Shown here piece after piece: positions 23,440 to 42,953 of a stretch of 64,000 bases of DNA. Source of the stretch: Candidatus Peribacteraceae bacterium. Lineage in GTDB: Bacteria; Patescibacteriota; Gracilibacteria; Peribacterales; Peribacteraceae. The notes under the pieces were generated by a model. The model made no database searches and was not told the DNA's origin. It worked only from the letters and a program-made list of their open reading frames with translations. The stretch lies in contig JBEBFT010000003.1 of the NCBI GenBank assembly GCA_040081825.1, positions 17,204 through 81,203 of the forward strand, given 5' to 3'. Positions within the stretch are counted from its first letter, which is position 1, and every line of letters starts with the position of its first letter. The position numbers were made by a program, and so were the translations under genes.

Positions 23440-23514
23440 GGCCTCATCGTCTAACGGTTAGGACACAGGATTCTCATTCCTGTAATCGGGGTTCGATTCC
23501 CCGTGGGGCTGCCA
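23440..23514 (+). tRNA. tRNA-Glu (anticodon CUC), CCA encoded
   Basis: GGCCTCA acceptor, D arm GTCT/GGAC, anticodon arm CAGGA-TTCTCAT-TCCTG, T arm CGGGG-TTCGATT-CCCCG, and 3' TGGGGCT-G-CCA. Confidence 0.9.
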
Positions 23515-28942: not shown

Positions 28943-31255
28943 TTGTCTGAATCAAAAAATCTCCTCAGCAAGCGCGTTTCCAGGGTCACAACCGACTCTG
29001 GCGTCTACCGCTGGCTGGATAAGAAGGGAGAGGTGCTGTACGTCGGCAAGGCAAAGAACCTCCGCAAACGCATGCATACGTACGTCGCCGGAAAGGCGAA
29101 GAACTCTGCGTGGACCGAGATCATGGTCAGGCAGATCGCCGATTTCGAAGTGACGGTCGTCAAAAGCGAGCTCGAGGCATTTATGCTTGAGTCGAATCTG
29201 ATCAAGGAACTAAAACCTAAATACAACATCATGCTCAAGGACGACAAAGGGTACGTCTACGTGCGTGTCTCCACTCACGAGCGCTATCCGCGTGTGGAGA
29301 TCGTGCGACGAATTGGTACGGACAAGGCTCGGTACTTCGGACCCTTCACAACAGGCTCGCAGATTACGGAGCGAACTGTCGAGATGCTGGATTCCATCCT
29401 TCGCTTCCGTGCGTGTGGACAATCTCTGGATGCACTGAATACTGGAAAGACGCTCGCAGGCACACCCTGTCTCGATCATCAGATCGGTCGATGTATCGGT
29501 CTCTGCATCGGAAGTGTCTCGGAAGAGGAATACCTGCGTCGTATCAAAGCTGTCATCAGTTTTTTCCGCGGCAACTTGGCTGACGTGAAGCGCGAAACAG
29601 TGTTGGCGATGAAAGCAGCTGCGGAGGATAAGAAGTTTGAAAAGGCAGCGCGACTTCGCGATGCACTCAGTTTCATCGAGGATCTGGAGAAGCGGCAGTC
29701 GATTTCCGATACGTCTGGCGAGGACATCGATGTCTTCGGTCTCGCGGCACGCGCAGGCAAGTGGCAGGCAGTCGTCCTTCGCCAACGCGATGGCAGACTG
29801 ATTCAGGAGCTTTCCTTTGCGCTCCGCGGCGATGCTGAGACTGTCCCCGACGCTCTCTCGCAACTGATCGCACAGTTTTATACTGAAACAACTGATGTGC
29901 CGTCGATGCTTCTGATCGGCGAACCGATCCTTGACCAGGAAGTGCTGGAAGAGTGGCTGACTGGCATGAAGGGTACGGGAGTAAAGATCCGAGTACCCGA
30001 ACGTGGTCGCAAGTCTGCGCTGCTCACGATGGCTGAGAAGAATGCTGACGAAAAAGTGCAGCAACAGTTTGCCGCGTGGGAATCGGAAGCGAGGAAAGTC
30101 GAGGATGCGTTAGCGGGACTGACTAAAATTCTTTCACTCTCAGAAAAACCAAAACGTATTGAGGGTTATGACATCTCGCATCTCGGTGGGACTGCGACAG
30201 TTGGCAGCATGGTCGTGTTCGAGAACGGCAAACCAAAGCGCGAGCACTATCGCAGTTTCAATATCACGACAGTTCGCGAAGGTGACATCGATGATTACAA
30301 ATCGCTCGCCGAAGTATTAAGGCGACGTCTCAAGTATCTGACAGATGATCTGAAAACTCTTGAAGCGAAGTGGCAGGAGAAGGGCGTGACCATAGGCAAG
30401 GCGAAGAAGGCTGAGCAGCCTTTCATTGTCGATACGTCTACGAAGAATGAAGACACGATCAGTGCTGACAATATTTCGTACAAGGATTACCTCGTTGTCA
30501 GGGCTCAGGATCAGATTATTGGATTTGGTAGACTGTTTGCATACGACGGAGTCATGGCGCTTCGATCAGTATGGCTTGAAGAGAGATACAGAGGGCAGCA
30601 GCTCGGAGCCTTTCTCGTTCGGTCTCTTCTTGCGAAAGTAAAAAAGGGCAAGATCTATGTTCAGTCCATGCCATCGCTGGTCGAATGGTATCAGTCACTC
30701 GGCTTTCAGATCGTGCGGGAACCGCCTGAGGTGCTCAGAAAAAAAAGAGAGTTGTGGCAATCATCGCATCCGGATCAGATTGCCGGAGAGATCATGGTGT
30801 ACATCGTGCATAAGCAGAAACCCGAGGCGTCGTTTACGTCACACCCAGACCTTCTCCTGATCGACGGTGGAAAAGGTCAGCTCTCCGCGGTTGTCTCGGT
30901 GCTTGATGAGCTAGAAATGACGATCCCTGTCGCTGGACTCGCCAAGCGAGAGGAGGAAATCTTCCTGCCTGGGCAATCTCTTCCTGAGGTCGTTCCCAAA
31001 GATTCCGAAGCGCGATTCCTGCTCCAGCGTGTCCGTGACGAAGCGCATCGATTCGCAAACAGTAAACGCGAGAAGCGACTCGCCGCAGTCCTTACCCAGT
31101 CAGCAGTCGATGACATGGCTGGTATCGGAGACATCACAAAGGCAAAACTCGTCCAAAAATTCGGTTCGCTTGCCAAGGCGAAGAATGCGAGTGAGGAGCA
31201 GCTGGCGGAAGTGTTAACCGAGAGACAGTTGAAAGAGTTTCGCAAAAGTGATTAG
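28943..31255 (+). CDS. uvrC: Excinuclease ABC subunit C with an inserted GNAT-like domain
   Basis: GIY-YIG (GVYRWLDKKGEVLYVGKAKNLRKRM), UVR motif, IEGYDISHLGG, PDLLLIDGGKGQL and a C-terminal HhH. About 165 extra residues (aa 466-632) include RSVWLEERYRGQQLGAFLVRSLL. TTG start. Confidence 0.9.
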   Translation: MSESKNLLSKRVSRVTTDSGVYRWLDKKGEVLYVGKAKNLRKRMHTYVAGKAKNSAWTEIMVRQIADFEVTVVKSELEAFMLESNLIKELKPKYNIMLKDDKGYVYVRVSTHERYPRVEIVRRIGTDKARYFGPFTTGSQITERTVEMLDSILRFRACGQSLDALNTGKTLAGTPCLDHQIGRCIGLCIGSVSEEEYLRRIKAVISFFRGNLADVKRETVLAMKAAAEDKKFEKAARLRDALSFIEDLEKRQSISDTSGEDIDVFGLAARAGKWQAVVLRQRDGRLIQELSFALRGDAETVPDALSQLIAQFYTETTDVPSMLLIGEPILDQEVLEEWLTGMKGTGVKIRVPERGRKSALLTMAEKNADEKVQQQFAAWESEARKVEDALAGLTKILSLSEKPKRIEGYDISHLGGTATVGSMVVFENGKPKREHYRSFNITTVREGDIDDYKSLAEVLRRRLKYLTDDLKTLEAKWQEKGVTIGKAKKAEQPFIVDTSTKNEDTISADNISYKDYLVVRAQDQIIGFGRLFAYDGVMALRSVWLEERYRGQQLGAFLVRSLLAKVKKGKIYVQSMPSLVEWYQSLGFQIVREPPEVLRKKRELWQSSHPDQIAGEIMVYIVHKQKPEASFTSHPDLLLIDGGKGQLSAVVSVLDELEMTIPVAGLAKREEEIFLPGQSLPEVVPKDSEARFLLQRVRDEAHRFANSKREKRLAAVLTQSAVDDMAGIGDITKAKLVQKFGSLAKAKNASEEQLAEVLTERQLKEFRKSD

Positions 31256-32946: not shown

Positions 32947-33101
32947 AGTCCTTCATTTTCCTGATACTGAGTGCATTTGTCTAGTGACGAAACTGCGTCA
33001 ATTTTTTCTTGCCTTTTTTCTTCAAATCAATAGAATACTGGCGGGCTCGAGAAATCAGGGTGATGGGTTCCCCCGCACGGAACCTTCCTCCCCATTTTCC
33101 T

Positions 33102-34796
33102 ATGAAATCTCGATCCAAAAAATCACGCGGTCCGAAATACATTATCGTCACAGGAGGTGTTTGTAGTTCGCTTGGGAAGGGGATCGCAGCCGCATCGATC
33201 GGTGCAATCATGAAGGCAGCAGGCTTCAAAGTATTCGTGCAAAAGCTGGATCCCTACCTAAACGTCGATCCTGGAACCATGAGTCCATTTCAACATGGCG
33301 AGGTGTTCGTCACGGACGATGGAGCGGAGACCGATCTGGACCTCGGGCATTACGAGCGTTTCATTGATGAGCCGATGAGTAAGCTGAGCACGATCACGAC
33401 TGGAAAGATCTACACCGAGGTGCTCGCGAAGGAGAGAAAAGGAGATTTCCTCGGACGCACCATTCAGGTTGTGCCGCACATTACTGATGCCATCAAAGCA
33501 TCCATTACCGGGGCAGCGAAGAAGAGTGGTGCCGAGATCATGATGGTGGAAGTAGGTGGGACGGTCGGCGACATCGAAGGAGAGCCGTATCTGGAGGCGA
33601 TCAGGCAGCTACGTTCCGAGCTTGGATCCACGAATATTTTTCACGTGCATCTGACACTGCTTCCATTCCTCGCAGGTTCCAAAGAACTAAAGACAAAACC
33701 GACACAGCTCTCCGTTCGTGAACTTCGTCGTATCGGGCTGCACCCCGATATGATTCTGGCGCGTGCTGATCAGGATATTCCTGCCGATCTCCTCGATAAA
33801 ATCAGCAAGTTCTGCGACGTGAAGAGGGAAGCCGTGATTCCCGCGCCGACCGTAAAGTCTATCTACGATGTTCCGCTCAATTTCCAAGAGCACGGCATCG
33901 CGAAAGTCATCGGACAGTCACTCAGTCTCGGCAATCTGCGTCCGAATATGAAGGAGTGGGAAGAGGGCAGGAAGCGCTATACGAACGCAAAAAAGCCGAT
34001 CAAGATCGCTCTTGTTGGAAAGTATACGAACTTAGACGATGCGTACTTAAGCGTTATCGAATCCATCAAGTCTGCTGCAGTCTTCCATGGTAGGAAAGCA
34101 GAGATCGTCTGGGTGGATAGTGAGAAATTGGAAGACCCTTCGACTCGCTCCGCTCGCTCAGGGCAGCAGAGTCTAAAGGAGTGGGCGAAACTCAAGTCAG
34201 TCGCCGGCATCATCGTTCCGGGTGGGTTTGGAACACGAGGCATCGAGGGCAAGATCCTCGCTGCCAACTACGCACGTACGAAAAAAGTTCCATACCTCGG
34301 ACTCTGTCTCGGTTCGCAGTTACTCGCGATCGAATTTGCGCGTGATGCTCTCAAGAATCCAAAACTGACGAGCCAAGAGTTTGATGAAGCGGAAAAACTG
34401 ACCGACGCTGAATACATCGTGCATTTCCTTCCAGATCAACATAAAGGAAGGAGCAAGGGTGGCACGCTCAGGCTCGGTGCGTACCGTTGCAAAGTGAAGA
34501 AGGGGACGAAAGCGTACGCGGCATACAAGGAAGCAGGGCAATTACTGGCTGGCGATTTTGTTTCCGAGCGTCATCGACATCGCTACGAATTTAATAATAA
34601 ATTTAAGAAACGGCTGGAAGATGCGGGACTCGTCTTCTCTGGCGAGTGGCTTGAGTCGGGGCTCATGGAGATTGTCGAAATAAAAGATCATCCCTTTATG
34701 GTGGGGTCGCAGTTTCATCCGGAGTTTAAGAGCAGGCCGCATCGCCCACAGGCGCTCTTTGCTGGGTTTATGAAAGTAGCTGCGAAAAATAAATAA
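33102..34796 (+). CDS. pyrG: CTP synthase
   Basis: [58 protein letters not shown] and HRHRYEFN. Start at ATG 33102. Confidence 0.95.
34136..34163 (+). repeat. 28-nt element inside pyrG shared with the tRNA-Glu(UUC) flank
   Basis: CCCTTCGACTCG-ctccg-CTCGCTCAGGG here, against CCCTTCGACTCG-tcgcttcgctc-CTCGCTCAGGG at 42779-42812. In pyrG it is read as PSTRSARSG. Confidence 0.55.
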
Positions 34797-34812: not shown

Positions 34813-35346
34813 CCGGCACGCCGCGTGCCGGATGACGATAAATAGATCAGACCCAGATTTCTAGTGGATCACAGACATCGAGAAAATGTAACGATGTCCA
34901 TGGCCAATCGGTGACTTCTCGAACGAGTTTATGTTTCATAGCATTGCCCTGAATATAGCCAACGACGCTACCTCTCTGTTTTGCATCTCGAATTCGTTCG
35001 TCATAAAATCCTGTCTGCCAGCCGATCGCGGGATCCATCCTTCGAAATTCTTTTGAACTGCACGATTTGAAACTCCGCATGAAGCTACTTAAACCCTTTG
35101 GGCCGGGAGAGAGAAGAAGATGCAGATGATTCGGAAGAATGCAAAAGGCATGAAGGAACGCTTTATGAATGTCCCTTGTCACGCGAAGATGATCGATGAG
35201 TCGTTCGGGGATGCTTTCGCGCGTACACCAACGAATGGAATCCTTTGTTTTTGTAATGACATGGAATAGCCCAAACTGTTGGTAGTGAATCTGCGGCATG
35301 AGGTTTGCGATTGTAGCATTAGTGGCACCGAGACGCGGCGTCTCGG
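34813..35346 (-). mobile_element. RAYT gene bracketed by two 19-nt palindromes (REPtron-like unit 1)
   Basis: CCGGCACGC-c-GCGTGCCGG (34813-34831) and CCGAGACGC-g-GCGTCTCGG (35328-35346) share the pattern CCGnnACGC-n-GCGTnnCGG, with compensated arm changes. Confidence 0.6.
34847..35299 (-). CDS. REP-associated tyrosine transposase (IS200-like HUH Y1 family)
   Basis: HUH motif LPNHLHLLLSP, WQTGFYDERI, and the catalytic-Tyr block VVGYIQGNAMKHKLV. Start at Met 35299. Confidence 0.75.
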   Translation of the reverse strand: MPQIHYQQFGLFHVITKTKDSIRWCTRESIPERLIDHLRVTRDIHKAFLHAFCILPNHLHLLLSPGPKGLSSFMRSFKSCSSKEFRRMDPAIGWQTGFYDERIRDAKQRGSVVGYIQGNAMKHKLVREVTDWPWTSLHFLDVCDPLEIWV

Positions 35347-35393
35347 CTGCGGGGAGCAAAAAAGAGGAGTAGCGTGAAGTTGCTGGATAATGT

Positions 35394-36338
35394 ATGATGA
35401 CGCCAATGACAACGAAGACTCAGATCGCCGGAGTCTCTCTCGACTCCTACGTTTTTAACGCTGCCGGACCGAAGGATGTCACACTCGATGAGCTCCGTAC
35501 GATTGGTGCATCGGGCTCTGCTGCCATCGTCATGAAGTCGTGCACGATCGAACCAAGACAAGGAAACGAGGAGCCACGGTACGTCGATGTTCCGCTTGGC
35601 TCCATCAACAGCATGGGACTGCCGAATCTGGGATACAAAGCATATTTGGACATGCTCGGGACACTGAAGTCAGAGTTTCGTACCAAGCCAATTGTCGCGA
35701 GTCTGGCAGGCATGTCTCCGGAGGACATTCCGGTACTGGTTGATGCATTTAACGCAAGCGCAGTCGATATTATCGAGCTCAACCTATCGTGTCCGAATCT
35801 GAAGGGTAAGCCACAAATCGCCTATGACTTCGAGATGACCGACAAAATTTTGAGCGATGTCACCAAGCATCTGAAAAAGCCGTTTGGTATCAAGCTACCA
35901 CCGTACTTAGACCCTGTGCACTGGGACACCGCAGCAGCGATCTTCAAAAAGTATCCGATCAACTTCCTCTGTTGCATCAATTCTGTTGGCAACACTCTGA
36001 TTATCGACGGAGAAACAGAGAAGCCACTCATCAAACCCAAAGGGGGATTCGGCGGACTGGGTGGAGACTTCATCAAGCCCGTAGCGCTCGCGAATGTTCG
36101 TGCCTTTAGCCAACTGCTTGGCGATCGTATGAGTATCGTTGGTGTTGGTGGTATCAAATCTGGCATGGACGCATTCGAGTTCCTGCTTGCGGGAGCAGAC
36201 TCCGTGCAGATTGGCACACAGTTCATGAAGGAGGGGCCCGGGTGCTTTGGTAGGATAGATGCTGAGCTTGCGCAGATAATGAAACGAAAGGGGTACAAAG
36301 AAATTTCATCCGCAAAAGGGCAATTAAAGGTACTCTGA
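35394..36338 (+). CDS. pyrD: Dihydroorotate dehydrogenase, class 1
   Basis: VFNAAGPKD, SINSMGLPN, IELNLSCPN, CINSVGN and GVGGI. Confidence 0.9.
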   Translation: MMTPMTTKTQIAGVSLDSYVFNAAGPKDVTLDELRTIGASGSAAIVMKSCTIEPRQGNEEPRYVDVPLGSINSMGLPNLGYKAYLDMLGTLKSEFRTKPIVASLAGMSPEDIPVLVDAFNASAVDIIELNLSCPNLKGKPQIAYDFEMTDKILSDVTKHLKKPFGIKLPPYLDPVHWDTAAAIFKKYPINFLCCINSVGNTLIIDGETEKPLIKPKGGFGGLGGDFIKPVALANVRAFSQLLGDRMSIVGVGGIKSGMDAFEFLLAGADSVQIGTQFMKEGPGCFGRIDAELAQIMKRKGYKEISSAKGQLKVL

Positions 36339-36342
36339 GCCC

Positions 36343-36371
36343 TTGACATTAGTTTAGACATGAACTAATAT
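36343..36371 (+). promoter_or_regulatory. Near-consensus sigma-70-type promoter
   Basis: TTGACA (36343-36348), exactly 17 nt, then TAATAT (36366-36371). Confidence 0.55.
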
Positions 36372-36375
36372 GAAG

Positions 36376-36444
36376 ATGTTCTACTTATTCCCACATATTC
36401 TTATGATCGGTGGTTCAGGTTGCGGTTGCGGCGGCTCTTGCTAG
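36376..36444 (+). CDS. Candidate 22-aa Cys/Gly-rich micro-ORF (MFYLFPHILMIGGSGCGCGGSC)
   Basis: The ATG lies 5 nt after the -10 box, so it could be leaderless. An in-frame internal ATG at 36403 would give MIGGSGCGCGGSC. Stop is at 36442-36444, 28 nt before a strong terminator. No homology evidence. Confidence 0.3.
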   Translation: MFYLFPHILMIGGSGCGCGGSC

Positions 36445-36471
36445 TCGACAACGAACCCAAATAACGAGAAA

Positions 36472-36500
36472 GCTCGGGTCCATTGGATCCGGGCTTTTTT
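36472..36500 (+). terminator. Rho-independent terminator
   Basis: GCTCGGGTCC-att-GGATCCGGGC (10 bp, two G-U pairs) followed by TTTTTT. Confidence 0.7.
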
Positions 36501-36617
36501 CGATGGTGTTCTACCGTGACGTAGAACATTGTTCATGCGACTACGCTCAACAAAACAAGATGTTGCCTTTCTCATCGACTAGTCATCGGGAGCAATCTGA
36601 CTATACTACTCAGTGCA

Positions 36618-39600
36618 ATGCGTGAGCCCTCCGCTGACATCCTGCTGGCAGCGTGTAAACATCTGACTGAGGGTGAGCAGAGCGACATCGAGGAGGCGTA
36701 TGCATTTGCGCTCGAAAAACATGCATCTCAAACCCGAGAGGACGGTTCGCCGTACGTTTTGCACGTTATTGATACGGCAACGATCGTTGCGAACTGGGGT
36801 GCCGATCGCGATACAATCATTGCAGCACTTCTGCACGATGTGCTTGAGGATACCGCAGTCACAAAGAGCGACCTCCTCGAACGATTTGGCAAACGAGTAG
36901 CACTTCTCGTCGAGGCGACGACCAAGTTCACGGCAGCAGATCTGAATCCTGCACTAGACTTGGAGCGAAAAACAGAAACACTTCGCAAACTCTTCGACGT
37001 GATGCGTATGGACACGCGTTGCATCGTCATCAAGCTCGCTGATCGATTGCACAATGTACTGACCATCGACGCGTTGCCGGACGAACGGCGTGAGCGGTTC
37101 GCACGTGAGACGATGAATGTGTATTACAAGATTGCATTTCATCTCGGTATGCGAGAAGTCAGAAGGCAGTTTGCCGAGCACTGTGTTCCGTATGTGTATC
37201 CCGAAGGGGCAACAGATATTCGTGAGCGTGATCGACTCTGTCAGCAGTTCCAGTCGCTTCCGCATACAATCGAAAGGGTACTCAAGGCACAGGAAAGTGA
37301 ATCCTCAGGGATTGATCGTATTTTCCTTCAGCCGCGCAATGCCCAGATTTTTCATGACAAACGCACTGCTCGTGGCGGTACAGCTGCTTCACAAGACGCG
37401 TTCTCATTGATTGCCATCGTCACTGATGAGGAGCACTGTTATCACTTCCTCAAGTCCATTCACACTCTCTACAGACCAGTCGTTGGTCAGTTTCGCGATT
37501 ACATCGCAGCTCCCAGCGACTCTGGCTATCAGAGCTTACACACACATGTTTCGCTCCCTGATGGTCAAATCGTGGAAATACGTATCTACACAGAAAGCAT
37601 GTTCAAACGCGCAATGATGGGCATCATCGGCTCTTTGTTTGGTCATGGTGCTGCCAGTCCTGGCTTTGCGTGGCTGAAGCGTACTGAGGAACTGGATGTT
37701 CGCACTCGCGAAAGCAGTAGTGCCTTTTGGGAGGCTCTCGAGTCAGACATTTTACGCGAAACAATATCCATCAGCATCGATCAGCGTCGCTTGTCACTTC
37801 CCATGGGTTCCACGGCTCTCGATGCTGCTTTTGCACTGTACGAACAACGGGCTTCCTGCACCACCAGAATTGCGGTCAATGGTATCCAGTCTTCGTTTTC
37901 ACATGTCCTCAAAGAGGATGACAATGTACATGTCACTCTGGATTCTGTTCATCACGTCACGTTCGAATGGTTGGACGCAGTCTCAACCAGACATGCTCGC
38001 TTTCTGATCTCTGAAGAGTTGAAGCATCACTCTCGTGCTGAAAAAATAGCGCTTGGTTCGCGCATCTTGCAGCGTGAGTTGGATCACTACGGTAAAGGGC
38101 TCATCCAGCATCTGACTAGGTCGCAGTGTCAGGCTGCTGCAACCAAGTACAGTCGTCGTTCGTTCGATCAGGTTCTTTCGATGATCGGAGAAGGGGTACT
38201 GCGGTCGCGAGACGTTGTATTCTTCCTTTTCCCCGAAGAGAGGCGCACGCCGTTATTTATGGGCAGACTGGACGATTTTTATCGCTTCCGTATTGTCATT
38301 TCTTTCACTGATAGACCAAGCGATCCTCTCGCAGATCTTTCGAAGTTGGCAAAAATTCACAGCATCCATATCGATGCCCTCACACAAGAACATGGAAAGT
38401 CAGAGGTCGTGCTACATGTCGTTGGACACTCTGATACTCGTCAGCAGTTTGCAGATTTCGTCGAAGCACTGGAACGTCATGAGCACTGTTTGGGAGTGCA
38501 GACACTGATTCCCGCTCTGAAGAAATCTATATTAGTGGGGTCATTCCTTCTTGCGGGCATCGTGCTACTCGTCGATGTCATACTGCTTCCCTGGTATCAG
38601 GATGTATTTGAGGGGATTCCATACATACCTCGATTACTACTGCAGGCTGTGCCGCTGGTTCCTGTGCTCGTTGCAAACTTGTATCTTTTGCGACTACTGC
38701 GTCAGTACATCGTGCGCATGCGGACGGATCGATGGTACTTGGTTGTCGGCTTAGTTCTAAACGTTGGTAGCTTGGGTGTGCTGGTTGGTCAGATGATGCT
38801 GAATACCAAGGGTCATACTCTGTTGCCATTGATTGGGTTTTTTACGCTCTTTCTTGTGTATATGGGCTACAGGTTTCTGCGCACCGAGGCCCTGTTTGCA
38901 CCATTTGATGAGAAGAGGATGACCCCACTCTCTGATGTCGAGTGGCAGAGTCGTCGGCGACGAAAGATGATGGGGTACTGCATTCGTCTGTGTGGAGTGT
39001 TTATTTGGGGCATTCAACCAATTGTCATTCGATACACTCCAGCGAATGATCTGTCCCCATTCTTGCGTACATTTCTCTACGGCCTCGGAGCCATGTCACT
39101 CATGGTGATTGCATACTTGCTGCCGACACTACTCCGACGTGGACGCTTGCCCTCTCTCAAGCTTCCCTACAATCACGCCTTTTTGATGATCGTATTCGGA
39201 CAAGTTGGTTTCTACTACTTCCTGAATGCGAGCTTGCTCTACACGAGCGCCACGAACCTACTTCTGTTCAACACATTCGCTCCCGTCATTGCGCTCATCA
39301 TTGCCGCATTCTTCTGGCGAAAGGATATTCCGTACCTGCGTGACCCCAAGGTCATGTTGGGCATTTTCCTTCTCGCTGTAATGGCAACCATCGGTAGCAC
39401 GCTCCTGATTCAAAATAGTAGTGCATCCGATCGTCCTTTCTCTCTTTTTGGCGACATGCTGGCAATGGTCGCGATGTTTTTCGATGTTCTGTTTGTCATT
39501 GGACAGATCGAGTACGTCAAACACTTTGCAAAATCCAACGTGCTCCTCCTCAATCTGCATGTGTACTCATTTGTCCTCCTGTGCCTTGCACCCGTTATTG

Positions 39601-39908
39601 TTCTTGGAACAGTGCTCGGTACATCCATTCTTGCGGGGCTCACGCAGACATCGCTTCTCTTCGGTCTGGGAATTGGCGTCATGATCGGTGTGGGGCAACT
39701 ACTCAATTACGAGGCGTTTAAACGTATCGACGGATACTTAGCGTTTATGATGTTCAATATTTCGGTGCTGATTACATTCGTGATCGAGACATTCCTCCTT
39801 CGTTCGGTACAACCGACACCACTACTCATCGTGAGCGGCCTCTTCATCATCGGCGCCTCCGTTATTGCTGAAATAATGAATTCGAGATGCGAAAAGAAGG
39901 GCGCATAG
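36618..39908 (+). CDS. rel: Bifunctional (p)ppGpp synthetase/hydrolase fused to a multi-TM EamA/DMT permease domain
   Basis: HD hydrolase (LLHDVLEDT), synthetase (RDYIAAPSDSGYQSLHTHV), TGS- and ACT-like segments up to about aa 635. Then about 460 aa of TM helices with EamA-like repeats (CGVFIWGIQPIVIRY...; LLNYEAFKRIDGYLAFMMFNISVLITF). Confidence 0.85.
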   Translation: MREPSADILLAACKHLTEGEQSDIEEAYAFALEKHASQTREDGSPYVLHVIDTATIVANWGADRDTIIAALLHDVLEDTAVTKSDLLERFGKRVALLVEATTKFTAADLNPALDLERKTETLRKLFDVMRMDTRCIVIKLADRLHNVLTIDALPDERRERFARETMNVYYKIAFHLGMREVRRQFAEHCVPYVYPEGATDIRERDRLCQQFQSLPHTIERVLKAQESESSGIDRIFLQPRNAQIFHDKRTARGGTAASQDAFSLIAIVTDEEHCYHFLKSIHTLYRPVVGQFRDYIAAPSDSGYQSLHTHVSLPDGQIVEIRIYTESMFKRAMMGIIGSLFGHGAASPGFAWLKRTEELDVRTRESSSAFWEALESDILRETISISIDQRRLSLPMGSTALDAAFALYEQRASCTTRIAVNGIQSSFSHVLKEDDNVHVTLDSVHHVTFEWLDAVSTRHARFLISEELKHHSRAEKIALGSRILQRELDHYGKGLIQHLTRSQCQAAATKYSRRSFDQVLSMIGEGVLRSRDVVFFLFPEERRTPLFMGRLDDFYRFRIVISFTDRPSDPLADLSKLAKIHSIHIDALTQEHGKSEVVLHVVGHSDTRQQFADFVEALERHEHCLGVQTLIPALKKSILVGSFLLAGIVLLVDVILLPWYQDVFEGIPYIPRLLLQAVPLVPVLVANLYLLRLLRQYIVRMRTDRWYLVVGLVLNVGSLGVLVGQMMLNTKGHTLLPLIGFFTLFLVYMGYRFLRTEALFAPFDEKRMTPLSDVEWQSRRRRKMMGYCIRLCGVFIWGIQPIVIRYTPANDLSPFLRTFLYGLGAMSLMVIAYLLPTLLRRGRLPSLKLPYNHAFLMIVFGQVGFYYFLNASLLYTSATNLLLFNTFAPVIALIIAAFFWRKDIPYLRDPKVMLGIFLLAVMATIGSTLLIQNSSASDRPFSLFGDMLAMVAMFFDVLFVIGQIEYVKHFAKSNVLLLNLHVYSFVLLCLAPVIVLGTVLGTSILAGLTQTSLLFGLGIGVMIGVGQLLNYEAFKRIDGYLAFMMFNISVLITFVIETFLLRSVQPTPLLIVSGLFIIGASVIAEIMNSRCEKKGA

Positions 39909-39975
39909 ACTTGCCTTCCAATATTTTTGCGAAGTATTTGCATATATCGAAAACACCAGGTACTCTAGGTTGGTC

Positions 39976-40386
39976 ATGGACTTTCCTTCGCTTCTCGCTC
40001 GTGCGAATCTCAGCAATACCGTGCAACGTCGCGCGATTCTTTCGTTACTGTCTTCATCGACCACGCCGCTCTCGCATGCCGATATGGCGTTGGCACTTCG
40101 AAAGAAAAAAGTCAGCATCGATACGGCAACCATCTATCGCATCTTCAAGCAGTTTCTGGAAAAGGGGATCGTGCATCGACATCCCAGTACTGGCGCATAC
40201 GTACTGTGTGCACTGCCGTCGTGTACGGGTCATCACGGGTTTCTGACGTGTAGTGAGTGCCACTCCGTCACCGAATTCGCCGACACAGCACTCTGTCAGG
40301 CGGAACATGCGGTTGCACGTTCGTTTAAGTTTAAACCACAGAAGCATGTGACCGATGTCGTCGGACTCTGTGCCTCCTGTCAGTAG
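39976..40386 (+). CDS. Fur-family regulator (likely Zur by context)
   Basis: TVQRRAILSLL, ATIYRIFKQFLEKGIV, and CxxC pairs CSECH...CASC. Immediately upstream of a ZIP transporter. Confidence 0.82.
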   Translation: MDFPSLLARANLSNTVQRRAILSLLSSSTTPLSHADMALALRKKKVSIDTATIYRIFKQFLEKGIVHRHPSTGAYVLCALPSCTGHHGFLTCSECHSVTEFADTALCQAEHAVARSFKFKPQKHVTDVVGLCASCQ

Positions 40387-40404
40387 CCACCTTCCTCCAT
40401 TCTT

Positions 40405-41259
40405 ATGTTTTCCACCCCTGCAGCCTTCAGTATTCTTAGCGTTCTGATCGTCAGCGCCGTATCTGCGTCCGGCATTATCTTTTTGATGCTGGCTACTTCC
40501 TCACTTCAGAGGATTATTTTCCTCTTTGTGAGCTTCGCTACCGGTGCCATTCTTGGCAACGTGTTCTTTCATCTTTTCCCAGAGATGATCGAACATGCAG
40601 ATGAGGTCAATGTTTCACTCCTCGTCTTCTTAGGGATTCTGGGATCCTTCATTGTCGAGAAGTTCATCCACTGGCACCACTGTCATGATGTGCACTGCAA
40701 AGAGCGGTCGAACGCTGTTGGTTCAATGGTGCTGATCGGAGATGCAGTGCATAACATCATGGACGGTATTCTGATTGCTACTGCGTATCTGGTCGATGTG
40801 CAGCTGGGTATCGCAACGACGATTGCTGTCGTGCTGCATGAGATTCCTCAAGAGATAGGGGATTATGCGATCCTGCTCCATAGCGGCTATTCAAAAATGA
40901 AGGCACTGCTATGGAATTTCTTTTCTGCATTAACAGCCATACTGGGTGCGCTCTTCGTACTGATCGCGGGTCAGTGGGTCCACGACATAGAGATCGTTTT
41001 ACTTCCGATTGTTGTTGGTAACTTTCTCTACATCGCTCTCGCGGACTTGATCCCGGAACTTCACCGAGAGGTACGCCCCAGTCGTGCACTTCTACAATTT
41101 GTCTGTGTCGTCCTCGGAGGTATGTTGCTCTATGTCATCTCAACGAATACTACACATCCGCATGTGGATGAACCTCGTGATGAACATGTAGAGGAAGGCG
41201 TGGATGAGCACGCTACGCGCTCAATGCCGTTTTCAGGTGACGGGTTACCGCTTTCATAA
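40405..41259 (+). CDS. ZIP-family zinc transporter
   Basis: HNIMDGILIA, VLHEIPQEIGDYAILLHSG and a His-rich loop (HWHHCHDVHC). Confidence 0.85.
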   Translation: MFSTPAAFSILSVLIVSAVSASGIIFLMLATSSLQRIIFLFVSFATGAILGNVFFHLFPEMIEHADEVNVSLLVFLGILGSFIVEKFIHWHHCHDVHCKERSNAVGSMVLIGDAVHNIMDGILIATAYLVDVQLGIATTIAVVLHEIPQEIGDYAILLHSGYSKMKALLWNFFSALTAILGALFVLIAGQWVHDIEIVLLPIVVGNFLYIALADLIPELHREVRPSRALLQFVCVVLGGMLLYVISTNTTHPHVDEPRDEHVEEGVDEHATRSMPFSGDGLPLS

Positions 41260-42878: not shown

Positions 42879-42953
42879 TGGCAGCCCCACGGAGAATCGA
42901 ACTCCGATTACAGGAATGAAAATCCTGTGTCCTAACCGTTAGACGATGGGGCC
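42879..42953 (-). tRNA. tRNA-Glu (anticodon UUC), CCA encoded
   Basis: The reverse complement reads GGCCCCATCGTCTAACGGTTAGGACACAGGATTTTCATTCCTGTAATCGGAGTTCGATTCTCCGTGGGGCTGCCA, a canonical cloverleaf. Confidence 0.9.

What the first reader, a model, noticed from the sequence alone, without database searches (positions are those of the whole stretch)
38530..39908. Rel/SpoT alarmone enzyme fused to an EamA/DMT-type permease
The 1096-aa protein has intact hydrolase (HD), synthetase, TGS-like and ACT-like regions. It then continues without a stop into about 460 residues of transmembrane helices, with two EamA-like repeats. Long RSH enzymes are normally soluble and ribosome-associated. A covalent link to a metabolite exporter or importer domain would couple (p)ppGpp metabolism to membrane transport or sensing.
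Basis: partly seen in the sequence, partly recalled or inferred. Interest (0 to 1): 0.65.

Follow-up and report, generated by a model that had tools for sequence, protein, structure and literature searches.

The report
Membrane-embedded SpoT-like enzyme fused to transporter
A candidate-phyla (Peribacteria) bacterium encodes its stress-alarmone (ppGpp) enzyme as one 1096-residue membrane protein joined to a 14-helix anchor-plus-transporter module; the enzyme has lost the parts that normally read the ribosome, so it may take its cue from the membrane instead.

Summary
ORF 36618-39908 (+) encodes one 1096-aa protein: a cytoplasmic long RelA/SpoT homologue (residues 1-630), then 14 TM helices (633-1093). 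It is not a frameshift or misassembly. Four independent assemblies cross the junction without indels, and about 57 orthologues (36-69% identity; the four that carry names are from Peregrinibacteria/Peribacteria) keep the architecture.

1. The membrane part is a 4-TM module plus a 10-TM DMT/EamA domain (fold match to YddG, TM-score 0.77-0.79).
2. The synthetase domain is not intact. ATP/GTP-coordinating arginines and the catalytic Gln are replaced family-wide, much as in the experimentally synthetase-dead A. baumannii SpoT. The hydrolase motifs are invariant.
3. The ribosome-reading parts are gone: there is no zinc-finger/RIS domain, and the tRNA-CCA histidine of TGS is Tyr.

The protein belongs to a wider, undescribed clade of membrane-bound long RSHs in CPR bacteria. 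The same 4TM+DMT module also occurs behind a winged-helix DNA-binding domain and as free-standing tandem paralogues.

Best reading: a membrane-tethered, SpoT-like (p)ppGpp hydrolase whose activity is set by the transporter-like module. The coupling is inferred, not shown. It is a new variant of a known kind and of moderately high interest.

The parts
36618..39908 (+). Complete gene for the 1096-aa RSH-4TM-DMT fusion protein (stop codon 39906-39908)
   Evidence: ORF list; 57 full-length orthologues; contigs from 4 runs without indels
36675..37217 (+). HD (p)ppGpp hydrolase domain, residues ~20-200; catalytic residues R40, H49, H73-D74, E77-D78, D142, N146
   Evidence: Pfam HD_4 1.4e-34; all listed residues invariant in 46 aligned orthologues; motifs HDVLEDT and KLADRLHN kept; fold match to Rel/SpoT catalytic domains, TM-score 0.8-0.9
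37305..37652 (+). Degenerate synthetase (pseudo-SYNTH-like) domain, residues ~230-345
   Evidence: Pfam RelA_SpoT 54 bits, profile positions 24-102 of 113, against 154 bits for canonical Rel; motif changes GRPK->LQPR, DxxAxR->DAFSLIA, RFKD->QFRD, EVQIRT->EIRIYT, AAHWxYK lost; 0 of 57 family members keep E.QIRT or RxKDY
37653..37757 (+). Core helix-turn-helix between the catalytic and regulatory halves, residues 346-380; highly conserved (W352, R355, S367, D377 invariant)
   Evidence: Per-domain conservation 0.73; invariants; helices 351-362 and 367-377 in the model; role of Core in SpoT (PMC9974481)
37758..37952 (+). TGS-like domain, residues 381-445, with Tyr408 in place of the tRNA-CCA-stacking His (B. 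subtilis Rel H420)
   Evidence: Pfam TGS E=0.004, below cut-off; beta-rich fold in the model; alignment to 6yxa puts y408 opposite h420; His column: canonical 15/15 H, this family 13/57 H and 36/57 Y
37965..38237 (+). Alpha-helical (AH/HEL) domain, residues 450-540; the following zinc-finger/RIS domain is absent
   Evidence: Pfam RelA_AH_RIS matches profile positions 4-88 of 185 only, against 3-170 in canonical Rel; CCxPxPGD motif in 0/57 family members and 4/4 canonical Rel; model goes from helix 530-537 through a disordered stretch at 542-551 into the ACT-like domain
38280..38507 (+). ACT/RRM-like beta-alpha-beta-beta-alpha-beta domain, residues 555-630, ending a few residues before TM1
   Evidence: Secondary structure E555-564, H570-580, E584-592, E596-605, H608-619, E624-629; BLASTP to a Rel-ACT-4TM protein extends to residue 620; no Pfam ACT hit
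38514..38897 (+). 4-TM module, residues 633-760, with a conserved basic cytoplasmic loop (LLRxYxVRMRxDRW; R702, W706 and N715 invariant)
   Evidence: Hydropathy; helices; invariants; matched alone by the 769-aa RSH-4TM protein P0203, E=7e-8; no Pfam family
38898..38972 (+). Cytoplasmic basic linker / N-terminal tail of the DMT module, residues 761-785 (..EWQSRRRRKMM)
   Evidence: 7 K+R; low conservation 0.35; a similar basic tail precedes TM1 in stand-alone paralogues
38973..39413 (+). DMT/EamA repeat 1 (TM5-TM9), residues 786-932
   Evidence: Pfam EamA 2.3e-9, 38 bits against a cut-off of 28.2; 13 invariant residues
39441..39896 (+). DMT/EamA repeat 2 (TM10-TM14), residues 942-1093
   Evidence: Pfam EamA weak on its own (E=0.51), but counted as a second stretch in the C-terminal scan; clear in relatives; the whole 10-TM domain matches YddG 5i20 at TM-score 0.77-0.79 over ~310 columns
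36465..36502 (+). Intrinsic-terminator-like hairpin plus U-run after pyrD, separating it from the RSH gene
   Evidence: MFE -24.3 kcal/mol, z = -4.33, 0 of 200 shuffles fold as well; sequence
36580..36607 (+). Promoter-like site (TAGTCA-16-TATACT) 11 nt upstream of the start codon; weak evidence only
   Evidence: Consensus scan, 9 of 12 matches; the number of sites equals the shuffle expectation

Best explanation
Shown:
- The gene encodes a genuine, conserved, single-chain integral membrane long RSH of a Peribacteria-type CPR bacterium.
- Topology is N-in/C-in with 14 TM helices, so the whole RSH part (HD, degenerate SYNTH, Core, TGS, helical and ACT-like domains) lies in the cytoplasm. Its ACT-like domain is tied within a few residues to TM1 of a 4-TM module, which is followed by a 10-TM DMT/EamA transporter domain.
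- The hydrolase catalytic residues are invariant.
- The synthetase has lost several nucleotide-coordinating and catalytic residues.
- The zinc-finger/RIS domain is absent, and the tRNA-CCA-reading histidine is replaced.

Inferred:
- The protein works as a SpoT[Hs]-like enzyme, predominantly or exclusively a (p)ppGpp hydrolase. The pseudo-SYNTH, Core, TGS, helical and ACT domains serve as the allosteric 'cap' that switches the HD domain on or off, as in A. baumannii SpoT.
- The enzyme no longer monitors deacylated tRNA on the ribosome.
- Instead, the 4TM+DMT module provides the input. Substrate occupancy or the transport cycle of the DMT domain (substrate unknown; DMT members carry amino acids, metabolites and nucleotide derivatives) would be passed through the 4-TM bundle and the directly attached ACT-like domain to the hydrolase. 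Alarmone breakdown would then follow nutrient flux at the membrane.
For: Real fusion:
-.

Topology:
- 25 K+R in predicted cytoplasmic loops against 4 outside.
- No TM segment before residue 633.

Hydrolase intact:
- R40, H49, H73, D74, E77, D78, D142 and N146 are invariant in 46 orthologues (motifs).

Synthetase degenerate:
-.
- The experimentally SYNTH-dead SpoT of A. baumannii differs from active Rel at the equivalents of R241, R269, Y308, D264 and Q326 (PMC9974481). The window protein has changed three of these five (Q238, I265, R322), and R322 is invariant in the family.

Ribosome and tRNA sensing lost:
- ZFD motif in 0 of 57 members; AH_RIS profile truncated.
- H420 equivalent is Y408. 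H420E abolishes tRNA activation, and deleting the ZFD-RRM compromises synthesis while raising hydrolysis (PMC7797070).

ACT as hydrolase switch:
- C. crescentus SpoT needs its ACT domain for hydrolysis and is inhibited through it (PMC6344854).

Membrane module is more than an anchor:
- 23 invariant residues in the DMT domain and 5 in the 4-TM module, many polar or charged (R702, N715, T876, T879, N880, D946, D1038, N1047, E1057, E1085).
- DMT fold match to YddG, LicB, TPT and SLC35.
- The same 4TM+DMT subfamily is fused to a different output domain, a winged helix (P0136), in complete genes on two contigs.
- Free-standing paralogues lie in tandem right after a fusion gene and are 68.5% and 47% identical to its DMT domain.

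Evolutionary pattern:
- DMT-fused types B and C form one clade (100/100 bootstraps) and are the ones with degenerate SYNTH and lost His. The 4TM-only type A keeps them more often.
Against: - No biochemical data exist for any member.
- D260 and E320, equivalents of the Mg-binding and catalytic D264 and E324, are retained in the window protein (88% and ~70% of the family). Y304 is also retained, so residual or altered synthetase activity cannot be excluded.
- It could not be determined whether the same genome encodes another (p)ppGpp synthetase. There is none in the 64-kb window. If there is none at all, a hydrolase-only reading is awkward.
- Free-standing, recently duplicated DMT paralogues show the DMT domain can act as an ordinary transporter. 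That fits a simple co-localisation model as well as a sensor model.
- 13 of 57 family members still have His at the TGS position.
- The DMT substrate is unknown: there is no NCBIfam subfamily hit.
- AlphaFold inter-domain geometry (pTM 0.52) is not reliable enough to show an ACT-membrane interface.
Confidence: 0.55

Rival explanations
1. Tether or co-expression only. The DMT domain is an ordinary, autonomous metabolite transporter, and the RSH is an ordinary regulator that is simply anchored at the membrane (already so in the 4TM-only ancestors). The fusion secures co-localisation or stoichiometry without any allosteric communication.
For: - Membrane anchoring by 4 TM helices alone is widespread in related Rel proteins (117 clusters, 105 with 4 predicted TM).
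- P0203, nested inside the family, has lost the DMT domain yet keeps RSH+4TM.
- Free-standing DMT paralogues exist, some in unrelated contexts.
- The linker between the 4TM module and the DMT domain is poorly conserved, at 0.35.
Against: - The fusion has been kept over deep divergence, down to ~24-30% identity in the membrane half.
- The same module also recurs on a winged-helix DNA-binding protein, a pattern typical of input-output modules.
- Loss of the ribosome and tRNA sensing elements coincides with the DMT fusion, which leaves the enzyme without a known input.
Confidence: 0.27
2. A bifunctional membrane Rel. The divergent synthetase is still active with a variant active site, and the protein both makes and degrades (p)ppGpp in response to a membrane or transport signal. 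It would be the cell's only alarmone enzyme.
For: - D260, E320, Y304 and the YQSLHT motif are kept.
- The SYNTH domain is as conserved as other domains (0.62, 11 invariant residues).
- No other RSH lies in the window.
- CPR genomes are small and usually carry few paralogues (general knowledge).
Against: - Loss of both ATP/GTP-coordinating arginines, of the catalytic Gln (now an invariant Arg) and of the AAHWxYK helix parallels a tested synthetase-dead SpoT.
- 0 of 57 members keep E.QIRT or RxKDY.
- A pseudo-SYNTH domain is expected to stay conserved as a regulatory domain (PMC9974481).
- Intact-SYNTH Rel-ACT-4TM proteins exist in bacteria labelled Peregrinibacteria/Peribacteria and could supply synthesis, although co-occurrence in one genome was not tested.
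Confidence: 0.15
3. Substrate channelling. The DMT domain moves a guanine nucleotide or alarmone-related compound across the membrane, as SLC35-type DMT carriers move nucleotide sugars or ATP/ADP, and the attached HD domain processes it directly, for example in scavenging by an episymbiont.
For: Fold hits include nucleotide-sugar and ATP/ADP carriers of the DMT superfamily (CST 6oh3/6i1r, SLC35B1 9i20). The gene sits next to pyrG and pyrD in two distant genomes.
Against: - The best fold matches are bacterial amino-acid/metabolite and choline carriers (YddG, LicB).
- Sequence identity to all of these is 10-17%, so substrate cannot be inferred.
- The same module is also fused to a DNA-binding domain, which is hard to reconcile with enzymatic channelling.
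- The synteny with pyr genes is not kept in other members.
Confidence: 0.02
4. Artefact. Two adjacent genes (an RSH and a DMT permease) were merged by a sequencing, assembly or frameshift error.
For: None found. Some database entries are shorter (609-933 aa), but they lie on short contigs.
Against: - A contig at 51.6x depth shows no differences, and three other runs cross the junction without indels.
- 57 orthologues and 35 cluster representatives share the architecture.
- The reading frame stays continuous through the conserved ACT-TM1 junction.
Confidence: 0.01

Closest known systems
Monofunctional long-RSH hydrolase SpoT[Hs] of Acinetobacter baumannii (PDB 7qpr; PMC9974481)
   Same: It is the best full-length fold match (Foldseek E=3e-25). 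It has an intact HD domain and a retained but degenerate pseudo-SYNTH domain changed at the equivalents of R241, R269 and Q326. Core, TGS, helical and ACT/RRM domains are present. The expected logic is that the C-terminal domains allosterically control hydrolysis.
   Different: SpoT_Ab is soluble and keeps a zinc-finger domain. It has also lost the catalytic Asp and the stacking Tyr, both of which the window protein retains. The window protein lacks the ZFD and carries 14 TM helices. It is not a proteobacterial SpoT orthologue: it clusters with CPR membrane RSHs, and TIGR00691 scores 344 bits against a cut-off of 499.
Bifunctional Rel (B. subtilis Rel 6yxa/6htq; S. equisimilis Rel 1vj7)
   Same: Best sequence match among solved structures (6yxa, E=2.8e-64, residues 12-542). 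The domain order HD-SYNTH-TGS-helical is the same, and the HD motifs are identical.
   Different: Rel is soluble and ribosome-associated. It reads tRNA through H420 and the ZFD/RRM domains and has an active synthetase (PMC7797070). Here the His is Tyr, the ZFD is missing, the SYNTH motifs are altered, and the C-terminus is a membrane module.
DMT superfamily / EamA transporters (YddG 5i20, LicB 7paf, plastid TPT 5y78, SLC35 carriers)
   Same: 10 TM helices in two 5-TM repeats. The Pfam EamA hit is above threshold. TM-scores are 0.74-0.79 to YddG and LicB over ~305-318 columns.
   Different: Sequence identity is only 10-17%, and there is no NCBIfam subfamily hit. It is a distinct small subfamily, with only 100 relatives at E<=1e-3 among 1.84 billion representatives. 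It is preceded by an extra 4-TM module and fused to signalling domains.
Rel-ACT-4TM proteins of Peregrinibacteria/Gracilibacteria/Patescibacteria (e.g. L003 2188-4545, L002 5956-8337, P0231-P0349)
   Same: They belong to the same clade of membrane-bound long RSHs (100/100 bootstraps). They also lack the ZFD (0/117), and their ACT domain is followed directly by 4 TM helices.
   Different: They have no DMT domain. Synthetase motifs and the TGS His are largely retained (E.QIRT in 74/117; His in 51/60). Homology between the two kinds of 4-TM module is only suggestive (hhalign probability 34%, E=4e-4; control 17%).
Transporter-fold sensor domains fused to signalling outputs (e.g. SLC5-type CbrA/CrbS histidine kinases, the Amt-fused kinase Ks-Amt5). 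Recalled from general knowledge, not tested here.
   Same: A full transporter-fold membrane domain is covalently linked to a cytoplasmic signalling output. The same input module is combined with alternative outputs (RSH here, a winged helix in P0136).
   Different: The transporter superfamily is different (DMT), and so is the output (an alarmone hydrolase). Signalling has not been demonstrated for this module.

Membership tests
Long RelA/SpoT homologue (long RSH) | N-terminal HD hydrolase domain with the H..HD..ED..D..N catalytic set | tested here: met
   Pfam HD_4 1.4e-34. R40, H49, H73, D74, E77, D78, D142 and N146 are invariant. Fold TM-score 0.8-0.9 to Rel N-terminal catalytic structures.
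Long RelA/SpoT homologue (long RSH) | SYNTH domain fold following the HD domain | tested here: met
   Pfam RelA_SpoT 2.5e-14, above the cut-off. Beta-sheet/helix core at 232-341 in the model. Aligned with Rel structures.
Long RelA/SpoT homologue (long RSH) | Complete synthetase catalytic motifs (GRxK, DxxAxR, RxKD, YQSLHT, ExQIRT, AAHWxYK) | tested here: not met
   Only D260, Y304/YQSLHT and E320 are kept. R241, R269, R295, Q326 and R328 equivalents are replaced, and AAHWxYK is lost. 0 of 57 members have E.QIRT or RxKDY.
Long RelA/SpoT homologue (long RSH) | Regulatory C-terminal region: TGS, helical, ZFD/RIS and ACT/RRM domains | tested here: inconclusive
   TGS-like (Pfam E=0.004, fold present), helical (AH_RIS profile 4-88) and ACT-like (fold only) domains are present. 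The ZFD/RIS domain is absent.
Long RelA/SpoT homologue (long RSH) | Score above the curated cut-off of TIGR00691 (spoT_relA) | tested here: not met
   343.8 bits against a cut-off of 499.2; the match covers residues 27-542 only.
Long RelA/SpoT homologue (long RSH) | (p)ppGpp hydrolysis and/or synthesis activity | not testable with these tools
   Needs enzyme assays or complementation of E. coli relA spoT strains.
DMT superfamily / EamA (PF00892) | EamA profile match above the gathering threshold | tested here: met
   38.1-39.3 bits against 28.2 for repeat 1. Relatives of the same subfamily score 47-65 bits with two stretches.
DMT superfamily / EamA (PF00892) | Ten TM helices arranged as two 5-TM repeats | tested here: met
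   Ten hydropathy peaks at 786-1087. Ten helices in the model. Repeat 2 alone is weak, at E=0.51.
DMT superfamily / EamA (PF00892) | DMT fold | tested here: met
   Foldseek hits: YddG 5i20 (E~1e-5, TM-score 0.77-0.79), LicB 7paf (0.74), TPT 5y78, CST, SLC35B1.
DMT superfamily / EamA (PF00892) | Transport of a defined substrate | not testable with these tools
   No characterised subfamily match; identity to solved DMTs is 10-17%.
Transporter-like sensor ('transceptor') signalling proteins (functional analogy only) | A transporter-fold domain covalently joined to a cytoplasmic signalling output, and reused with different outputs | tested here: met
   RSH output in the window and 35 cluster representatives. 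Winged-helix output in P0136, a complete gene on two contigs.
Transporter-like sensor ('transceptor') signalling proteins (functional analogy only) | Ligand- or transport-dependent control of the output domain | not testable with these tools
   Needs reconstitution assays.

The most novel reading that the evidence does not exclude
In Peribacteria and related CPR bacteria, the ribosome has been replaced by the cell membrane as the place where starvation is sensed. A DMT transporter-fold domain (with its 4-TM adaptor) would act as a transceptor that reads nutrient flux and directly sets (p)ppGpp hydrolysis through the attached ACT-like domain. That would be a ribosome-independent, transport-coupled stringent control, and part of a modular system in which the same sensor also drives a membrane-tethered transcription factor.
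Probability: 0.3. Interest if true: 0.8.

Novelty: new variant of a known kind. Interest (0 to 1): 0.64.

Why it matters
All mechanistic models of long RSH enzymes (Rel, RelA, SpoT) treat them as soluble proteins. Their C-terminal domains read the ribosome and deacylated tRNA, or soluble partners such as ACP, EIIA-Ntr and DarB.

This family is integral to the membrane, has shed the ribosome and tRNA reading elements, and has gained a transporter-fold domain. It would be a natural example of an alarmone enzyme wired to a membrane input.

It appears in CPR bacteria, whose physiology and dependence on hosts for nutrients are poorly understood. It also shows that ordinary-looking 'RelA/SpoT family' annotations in Peregrinibacteria and Gracilibacteria hide membrane anchors in more than 100 protein clusters.

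The hypothesis can be tested heterologously with the established E. coli ppGpp0 and RelA-toxicity assays. A positive result would add a new regulatory principle to the stringent response and a new role for DMT domains.

Tried and rejected
- **Frameshift or misassembly:** rejected.
- **Genome-contig scan with the family alignment:** It still yielded L001-L003, which revealed architectures A and B.
- **Word-index homologue search with the membrane half alone:** only 4 hits, all on short contigs. The exhaustive representative search was needed.
- **PDB sequence search with the membrane half:** no hit. Only the fold search worked.
- **Homology of the 4-TM module between the 4TM-only Rel type and the window family:** BLASTP found nothing. 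hhalign gave probability 34%, E=4e-4, in register, against a 17% control, so the result is left as inconclusive.
- **DMT subfamily or substrate assignment with NCBIfam:** nothing usable.
- **Riboswitch or leader upstream:** no Rfam family near the gene.
- **Second RSH or SAS in the window:** none. Whether the genome has another synthetase could not be tested with the tools.
- **Contig-length cross-matching of type A and type C hits:** no shared contig; this is a weak test.
- **'Stand-alone' DMT relatives as possible split versions next to an RSH:** true in L086 but not in L081, L092 or L095. P0135 is a fragment at a contig end.
- **Literature:** no description of a transmembrane long RSH or an RSH-EamA fusion was found. 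The library is incomplete, so this is absence of evidence only.

Full report
**1. The observation**

The window holds one uninterrupted ORF, 36618-39908 on the + strand, encoding 1096 aa. Pfam places HD_4 (27-178, 1.4e-34), RelA_SpoT (259-336, 2.5e-14), a weak TGS (389-438, E=0.004), RelA_AH_RIS (455-543, 1e-5) and EamA (785-904, 2.3e-9; 38 bits against a cut-off of 28.2) in this single polypeptide.

The flagged interval 38530-39908 is residues 638-1096. Hydropathy finds 14 TM-like peaks there and none before residue 637. The coordinates and the description of an RSH that continues without a stop into TM helices are therefore correct.

**2. Not an artefact**

The sequence occurs in drinking-water and freshwater metagenomes. 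A contig at 51.6x depth matches 37900-39950 with no difference. Short contigs from three other runs cross 38486-38756 with substitutions only and no indels.

57 database proteins of 1071-1130 aa align over 97-100% of the query at 36-69% identity. The four that carry names are from Candidatus Peregrinibacteria, Peribacteria or Peribacteraceae, and are annotated merely as 'HD domain-containing protein'.

An exhaustive HMMER scan of 1.84 billion cluster representatives with the membrane half alone found only 100 relatives. 35 of these are proteins of 1080-1145 aa that carry the match at their C-terminus. 28 of the 35 keep strict hydrolase motifs. Six of the other seven still show an HDxxE(D/E)-type motif. 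Every one scanned with Pfam, including the motif-less P0129, is HD_4 + EamA, with RelA_SpoT detected in five of six.

**3. Anatomy**

An AlphaFold2 model built on 46 orthologues (mean pLDDT 81.5) gives the following layout.

| Region | Residues | Notes |
|---|---|---|
| HD | ~20-200 | |
| SYNTH-like | ~230-345 | |
| Core helix-turn-helix | 346-380 | conserved |
| TGS-like beta domain | 381-445 | |
| Helical domain | 450-540 | |
| Disordered linker | 542-551 | |
| ACT/RRM-like (βαββαβ) | 555-629 | |
| Four TM helices | 633-758 | begin almost immediately after the ACT-like domain |
| Basic linker | 761-785 | |
| Ten TM helices | to 1093 | |

- Charged residues follow the positive-inside rule: 25 K+R in predicted cytoplasmic loops against 4 outside. 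The topology is N-in/C-in, and the entire RSH part is cytoplasmic.
- Foldseek against the PDB matches the N-terminal ~630 residues to full-length SpoT (7qpr, E=3e-25), B. subtilis Rel (6yxa) and ribosome-bound RelA (5iqr).
- The last ~310 residues match DMT-superfamily transporters: YddG 5i20 (TM-score 0.77-0.79), LicB 7paf (0.74), the triose-phosphate translocator 5y78, the CMP-sialic acid transporter and SLC35B1.
- The second EamA repeat is weak by profile in this protein (E=0.51) but clear in relatives.
- The 4-TM module has no Pfam family.
- All domains are similarly conserved across the family (column identity 0.54-0.73), and only the two linkers are loose at 0.27 and 0.35.
- The membrane half has 28 invariant residues, many of them polar or charged: R702, W706, N715, T876, T879, N880, D946, D1038, N1047, E1057, E1085.

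**4. Catalytic state**

The hydrolase signature is fully intact and invariant: R40, H49, H73-D74, E77-D78, D142, N146, with the motifs HDVLEDT and KLADRLHN.

The synthetase is not intact. The residue-by-residue alignment to B. subtilis Rel and the mapping give:

| B. subtilis Rel | Window protein | Comment |
|---|---|---|
| R241 | Q238 | replaced |
| K243 | R240 | conservative |
| K251 | K248 | kept |
| D264 | D260 | kept |
| R269 | I265 | replaced |
| R295 | Q291 | replaced |
| K297 | R293 | conservative |
| Y308 | Y304 | kept |
| E324 | E320 | kept |
| Q326 | R322 | replaced; invariant Arg in the family |
| R328 | Y324 | replaced |

- The MH..AEYG(I/V)AAHWxYK helix is replaced.
- These changes are family-wide: 0 of 57 members keep E.QIRT or RxKDY.
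- The Pfam RelA_SpoT score is 54 bits over profile positions 24-102, compared with 154 bits over 1-111 for a canonical Rel.
- The tested benchmark is A. baumannii SpoT, which is hydrolase-active and synthetase-dead. It differs from active Rel at the equivalents of R241, R269, Y308, D264 and Q326 (PMC9974481).
- The window protein shares three of those five changes and keeps the Asp and the Tyr. Loss or strong impairment of synthesis is therefore likely but not proven.

**5. Loss of the ribosome and tRNA reading parts**

- Canonical Rel has a zinc-finger/RIS domain (CCxPxPGD...C) between the helical and ACT domains. The motif is present in 4 of 4 canonical references and in 0 of 57 family members.
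- The AH_RIS profile is matched only over positions 4-88 of 185, against 3-170 in canonical Rel.
[quoted passage not shown] H-to-E at this position abolishes tRNA activation (PMC7797070).
- Across groups, that column is His in 15 of 15 canonical Rel proteins and in 13 of 57 family members, where Tyr occurs in 36.

**6. A wider clade of membrane-bound long RSHs**

Related sequences reveal three architectures.

| Type | Architecture | Length | Key features |
|---|---|---|---|
| A | Rel-ACT-4TM | 765-800 aa | Synthetase motifs largely kept. At least 117 clusters named Peregrinibacteria, Gracilibacteria or Patescibacteria and annotated as ordinary RelA/SpoT. 105 of 117 have four predicted TM helices. 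No ZFD (0/117). TGS His kept in 51 of 60. |
| B | RSH-ACT-DMT | 920-975 aa | No 4-TM module. Strongly degenerate synthetase. His kept in 1 of 11. |
| C | RSH-ACT-4TM-DMT | 1071-1130 aa | The window's type. |

- A rough NJ tree of the first ~560 aligned positions, with 100 bootstraps, puts A+B+C in one clade apart from the sampled soluble Rels (100). B+C form a clade (100), and A and C are each monophyletic (100). B is unresolved (37).
- P0203, a 769-aa protein with RSH-ACT-4TM but no DMT domain, nests inside C, so its loss of the DMT domain is secondary.
- Degeneration of the synthetase and of the tRNA-reading His thus coincides with the DMT fusion.
- Whether the 4-TM modules of A and C are homologous is only suggested: the hhalign alignment is in register, with probability 34% against a 17% control.
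- The DMT domain of type B was not retrieved by the window's DMT domain, so one fusion event versus two remains open.

**7. The membrane module as a reusable unit**

- P0136 (780 aa) is a complete gene on two independent contigs. It carries a winged-helix TrmB/MarR-like N-terminus (weak Pfam hits, E~0.002-0.003) followed by the same 4TM+DMT module, 38% identical.
- Free-standing 10-TM members of the same DMT subfamily (301-349 aa, up to 43% identity) exist.
- In L086, two of them lie in tandem immediately downstream of a 1113-aa RSH-DMT fusion. They are 68.5% and 47% identical to its DMT domain.
- Others sit in unrelated contexts.
- The DMT domain is therefore a bona fide transporter-type unit. 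It can stand alone, and it can be attached, through the 4-TM module, to two different cytoplasmic output domains.

**8. Genomic context**

- The gene follows pyrG (33009-34796), an IS200-like Y1 transposase on the opposite strand (34847-35359) and pyrD (35394-36338). It is followed by a Fur-family regulator (39970-40386) and a ZIP transporter (40405-41259).
- The order uvrC...pyrG-x-pyrD-RSH_DMT is kept in a 46%-identity orthologue on a 1.39-Mb contig (L088) but not in more distant members.
- A strong hairpin plus U-run (36465-36502; -24.3 kcal/mol, z = -4.3) lies between pyrD and the gene. A promoter-like site lies at 36580-36607, though this is weak evidence because the number of sites equals the shuffle expectation. 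The gene is probably its own transcription unit.
- No Rfam family is nearby.
- No other RSH or DMT paralogue lies in the window.

**9. Mechanism**

The shown facts are set out in sections 1-8. What follows is inference.

- The protein is a SpoT[Hs]-like, hydrolase-dominant alarmone enzyme held at the membrane.
- In SpoT, the pseudo-SYNTH, Core, TGS, helical and RRM/ACT domains form a cap that allosterically switches the HD domain (PMC9974481).
- Here the ACT-like domain is joined within a few residues to TM1. Conformational changes in the 4TM+DMT module, caused by substrate binding or the transport cycle, are therefore well placed to reach the hydrolase.
- With the ZFD gone and the CCA-reading His replaced, the ribosome is unlikely to be the input.

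I put about 0.95 on the fusion being real and composed as described, about 0.65-0.7 on an impaired or lost synthetase, and about 0.35-0.4 on actual sensor coupling. The combined statement is given 0.55.

The main rival is a passive tether, or co-expression of an autonomous transporter with the RSH. Next comes a still-bifunctional enzyme. Nucleotide channelling and an assembly artefact are unlikely.

**10. Comparison with what is known, and novelty**

- The protein meets the defining features of a long RSH for the HD, SYNTH-fold, TGS-like, helical and ACT-like parts. It fails on complete synthetase motifs, on the ZFD and on the TIGR00691 cut-off (344 against 499 bits).
- It meets the DMT/EamA criteria by profile, helix count and fold.
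- The RSH classification papers of 2011 and 2020 mention no transmembrane long RSH. Full-text searches for RSH/SpoT with EamA, transmembrane, Peregrinibacteria, CPR or Patescibacteria found no description.
- The sequences are in public databases under generic names.
- I rate it a new variant of a known kind: known catalytic and transporter folds in an undescribed, conserved, membrane-integral architecture with a changed regulatory logic.

**11. Limits**

- There is no biochemistry for any member.
- The DMT substrate is unknown.
- The tree is a quick NJ with limited outgroup sampling.
- Inter-domain geometry of the model is uncertain (pTM 0.52).
- The presence of another synthetase in the same genome could not be checked.

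Noticed in passing
L003 2188-4545; L002 5956-8337; proteins P0231-P0349: Rel-ACT-4TM proteins: apparently bifunctional Rel with four C-terminal TM helices and no zinc-finger domain. They are abundant (at least 117 clusters) in Peregrinibacteria, Gracilibacteria and Patescibacteria, and are annotated as ordinary soluble RelA/SpoT proteins.
   Followed up: partly
L084 6001-8343 and L085 1948-4290 (protein P0136): A 780-aa protein with a winged-helix (TrmB/MarR-like) N-terminus fused to the same 4TM+DMT module, which makes it a candidate membrane-tethered transcription factor. An SLH-domain protein gene lies directly downstream, as it does downstream of the DMT-less RSH-4TM gene P0203 (L083). The two loci may be syntenic, with swapped N-terminal domains.
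   Followed up: partly
L086 3612-9008: A 1113-aa RSH-DMT fusion gene is followed on the same strand by two free-standing DMT paralogues (326 and 335 aa). They are 68.5% and 47% identical to the fused DMT domain, pointing to tandem duplication of the transporter part.
   Followed up: yes
L001 5926-8700; proteins P0064-P0067, P0069, P0071, P0076, P0083, P0109: A third architecture of 920-975 aa: RSH with a strongly degenerate synthetase (for example IRCKIRT in place of EVQIRT) and an ACT-like domain joined directly to a ~10-TM EamA domain, with no 4-TM module. The window's DMT domain did not retrieve this DMT domain in the exhaustive search.
   Followed up: partly
protein P0129 (1118 aa): A distant member of the fusion family lacks a recognisable HDxxED motif and has a much weaker HD_4 score (64 bits). 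In some lineages both catalytic domains may be degenerate.
   Followed up: no
window 34847-35359 (-): An IS200-like Y1 transposase gene (Pfam Y1_Tnp, 1.7e-10) sits between pyrG and pyrD. The syntenic orthologous locus L088 has an SBF-family transporter gene at that position instead.
   Followed up: partly
window 28943-31252 (+): The UvrC homologue (770 aa) appears to carry a GNAT acetyltransferase domain (residues ~514-593) inserted in or next to its RNase H-like endonuclease region. The orthologue in L088 is of similar length (775 aa).
   Followed up: no
window 36370-36444 (+): A tiny ORF in the pyrD-RSH intergenic region encodes MKMFYLFPHILMIGGSGCGCGGSC (hydrophobic start, Gly/Cys-rich end). 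It lies just upstream of the terminator hairpin at 36465-36502. It may be a chance ORF.
   Followed up: no
window 39970-41259 (+): A Fur-family regulator (138 aa) and a ZIP metal transporter (284 aa) lie directly downstream on the same strand, likely a Zur/zinc-uptake pair. The arrangement is not conserved next to the orthologue in L088.
   Followed up: partly
window 23440-23511 (+) and 42882-42953 (-): Two tRNA genes are the only Rfam matches in the window.
   Followed up: no
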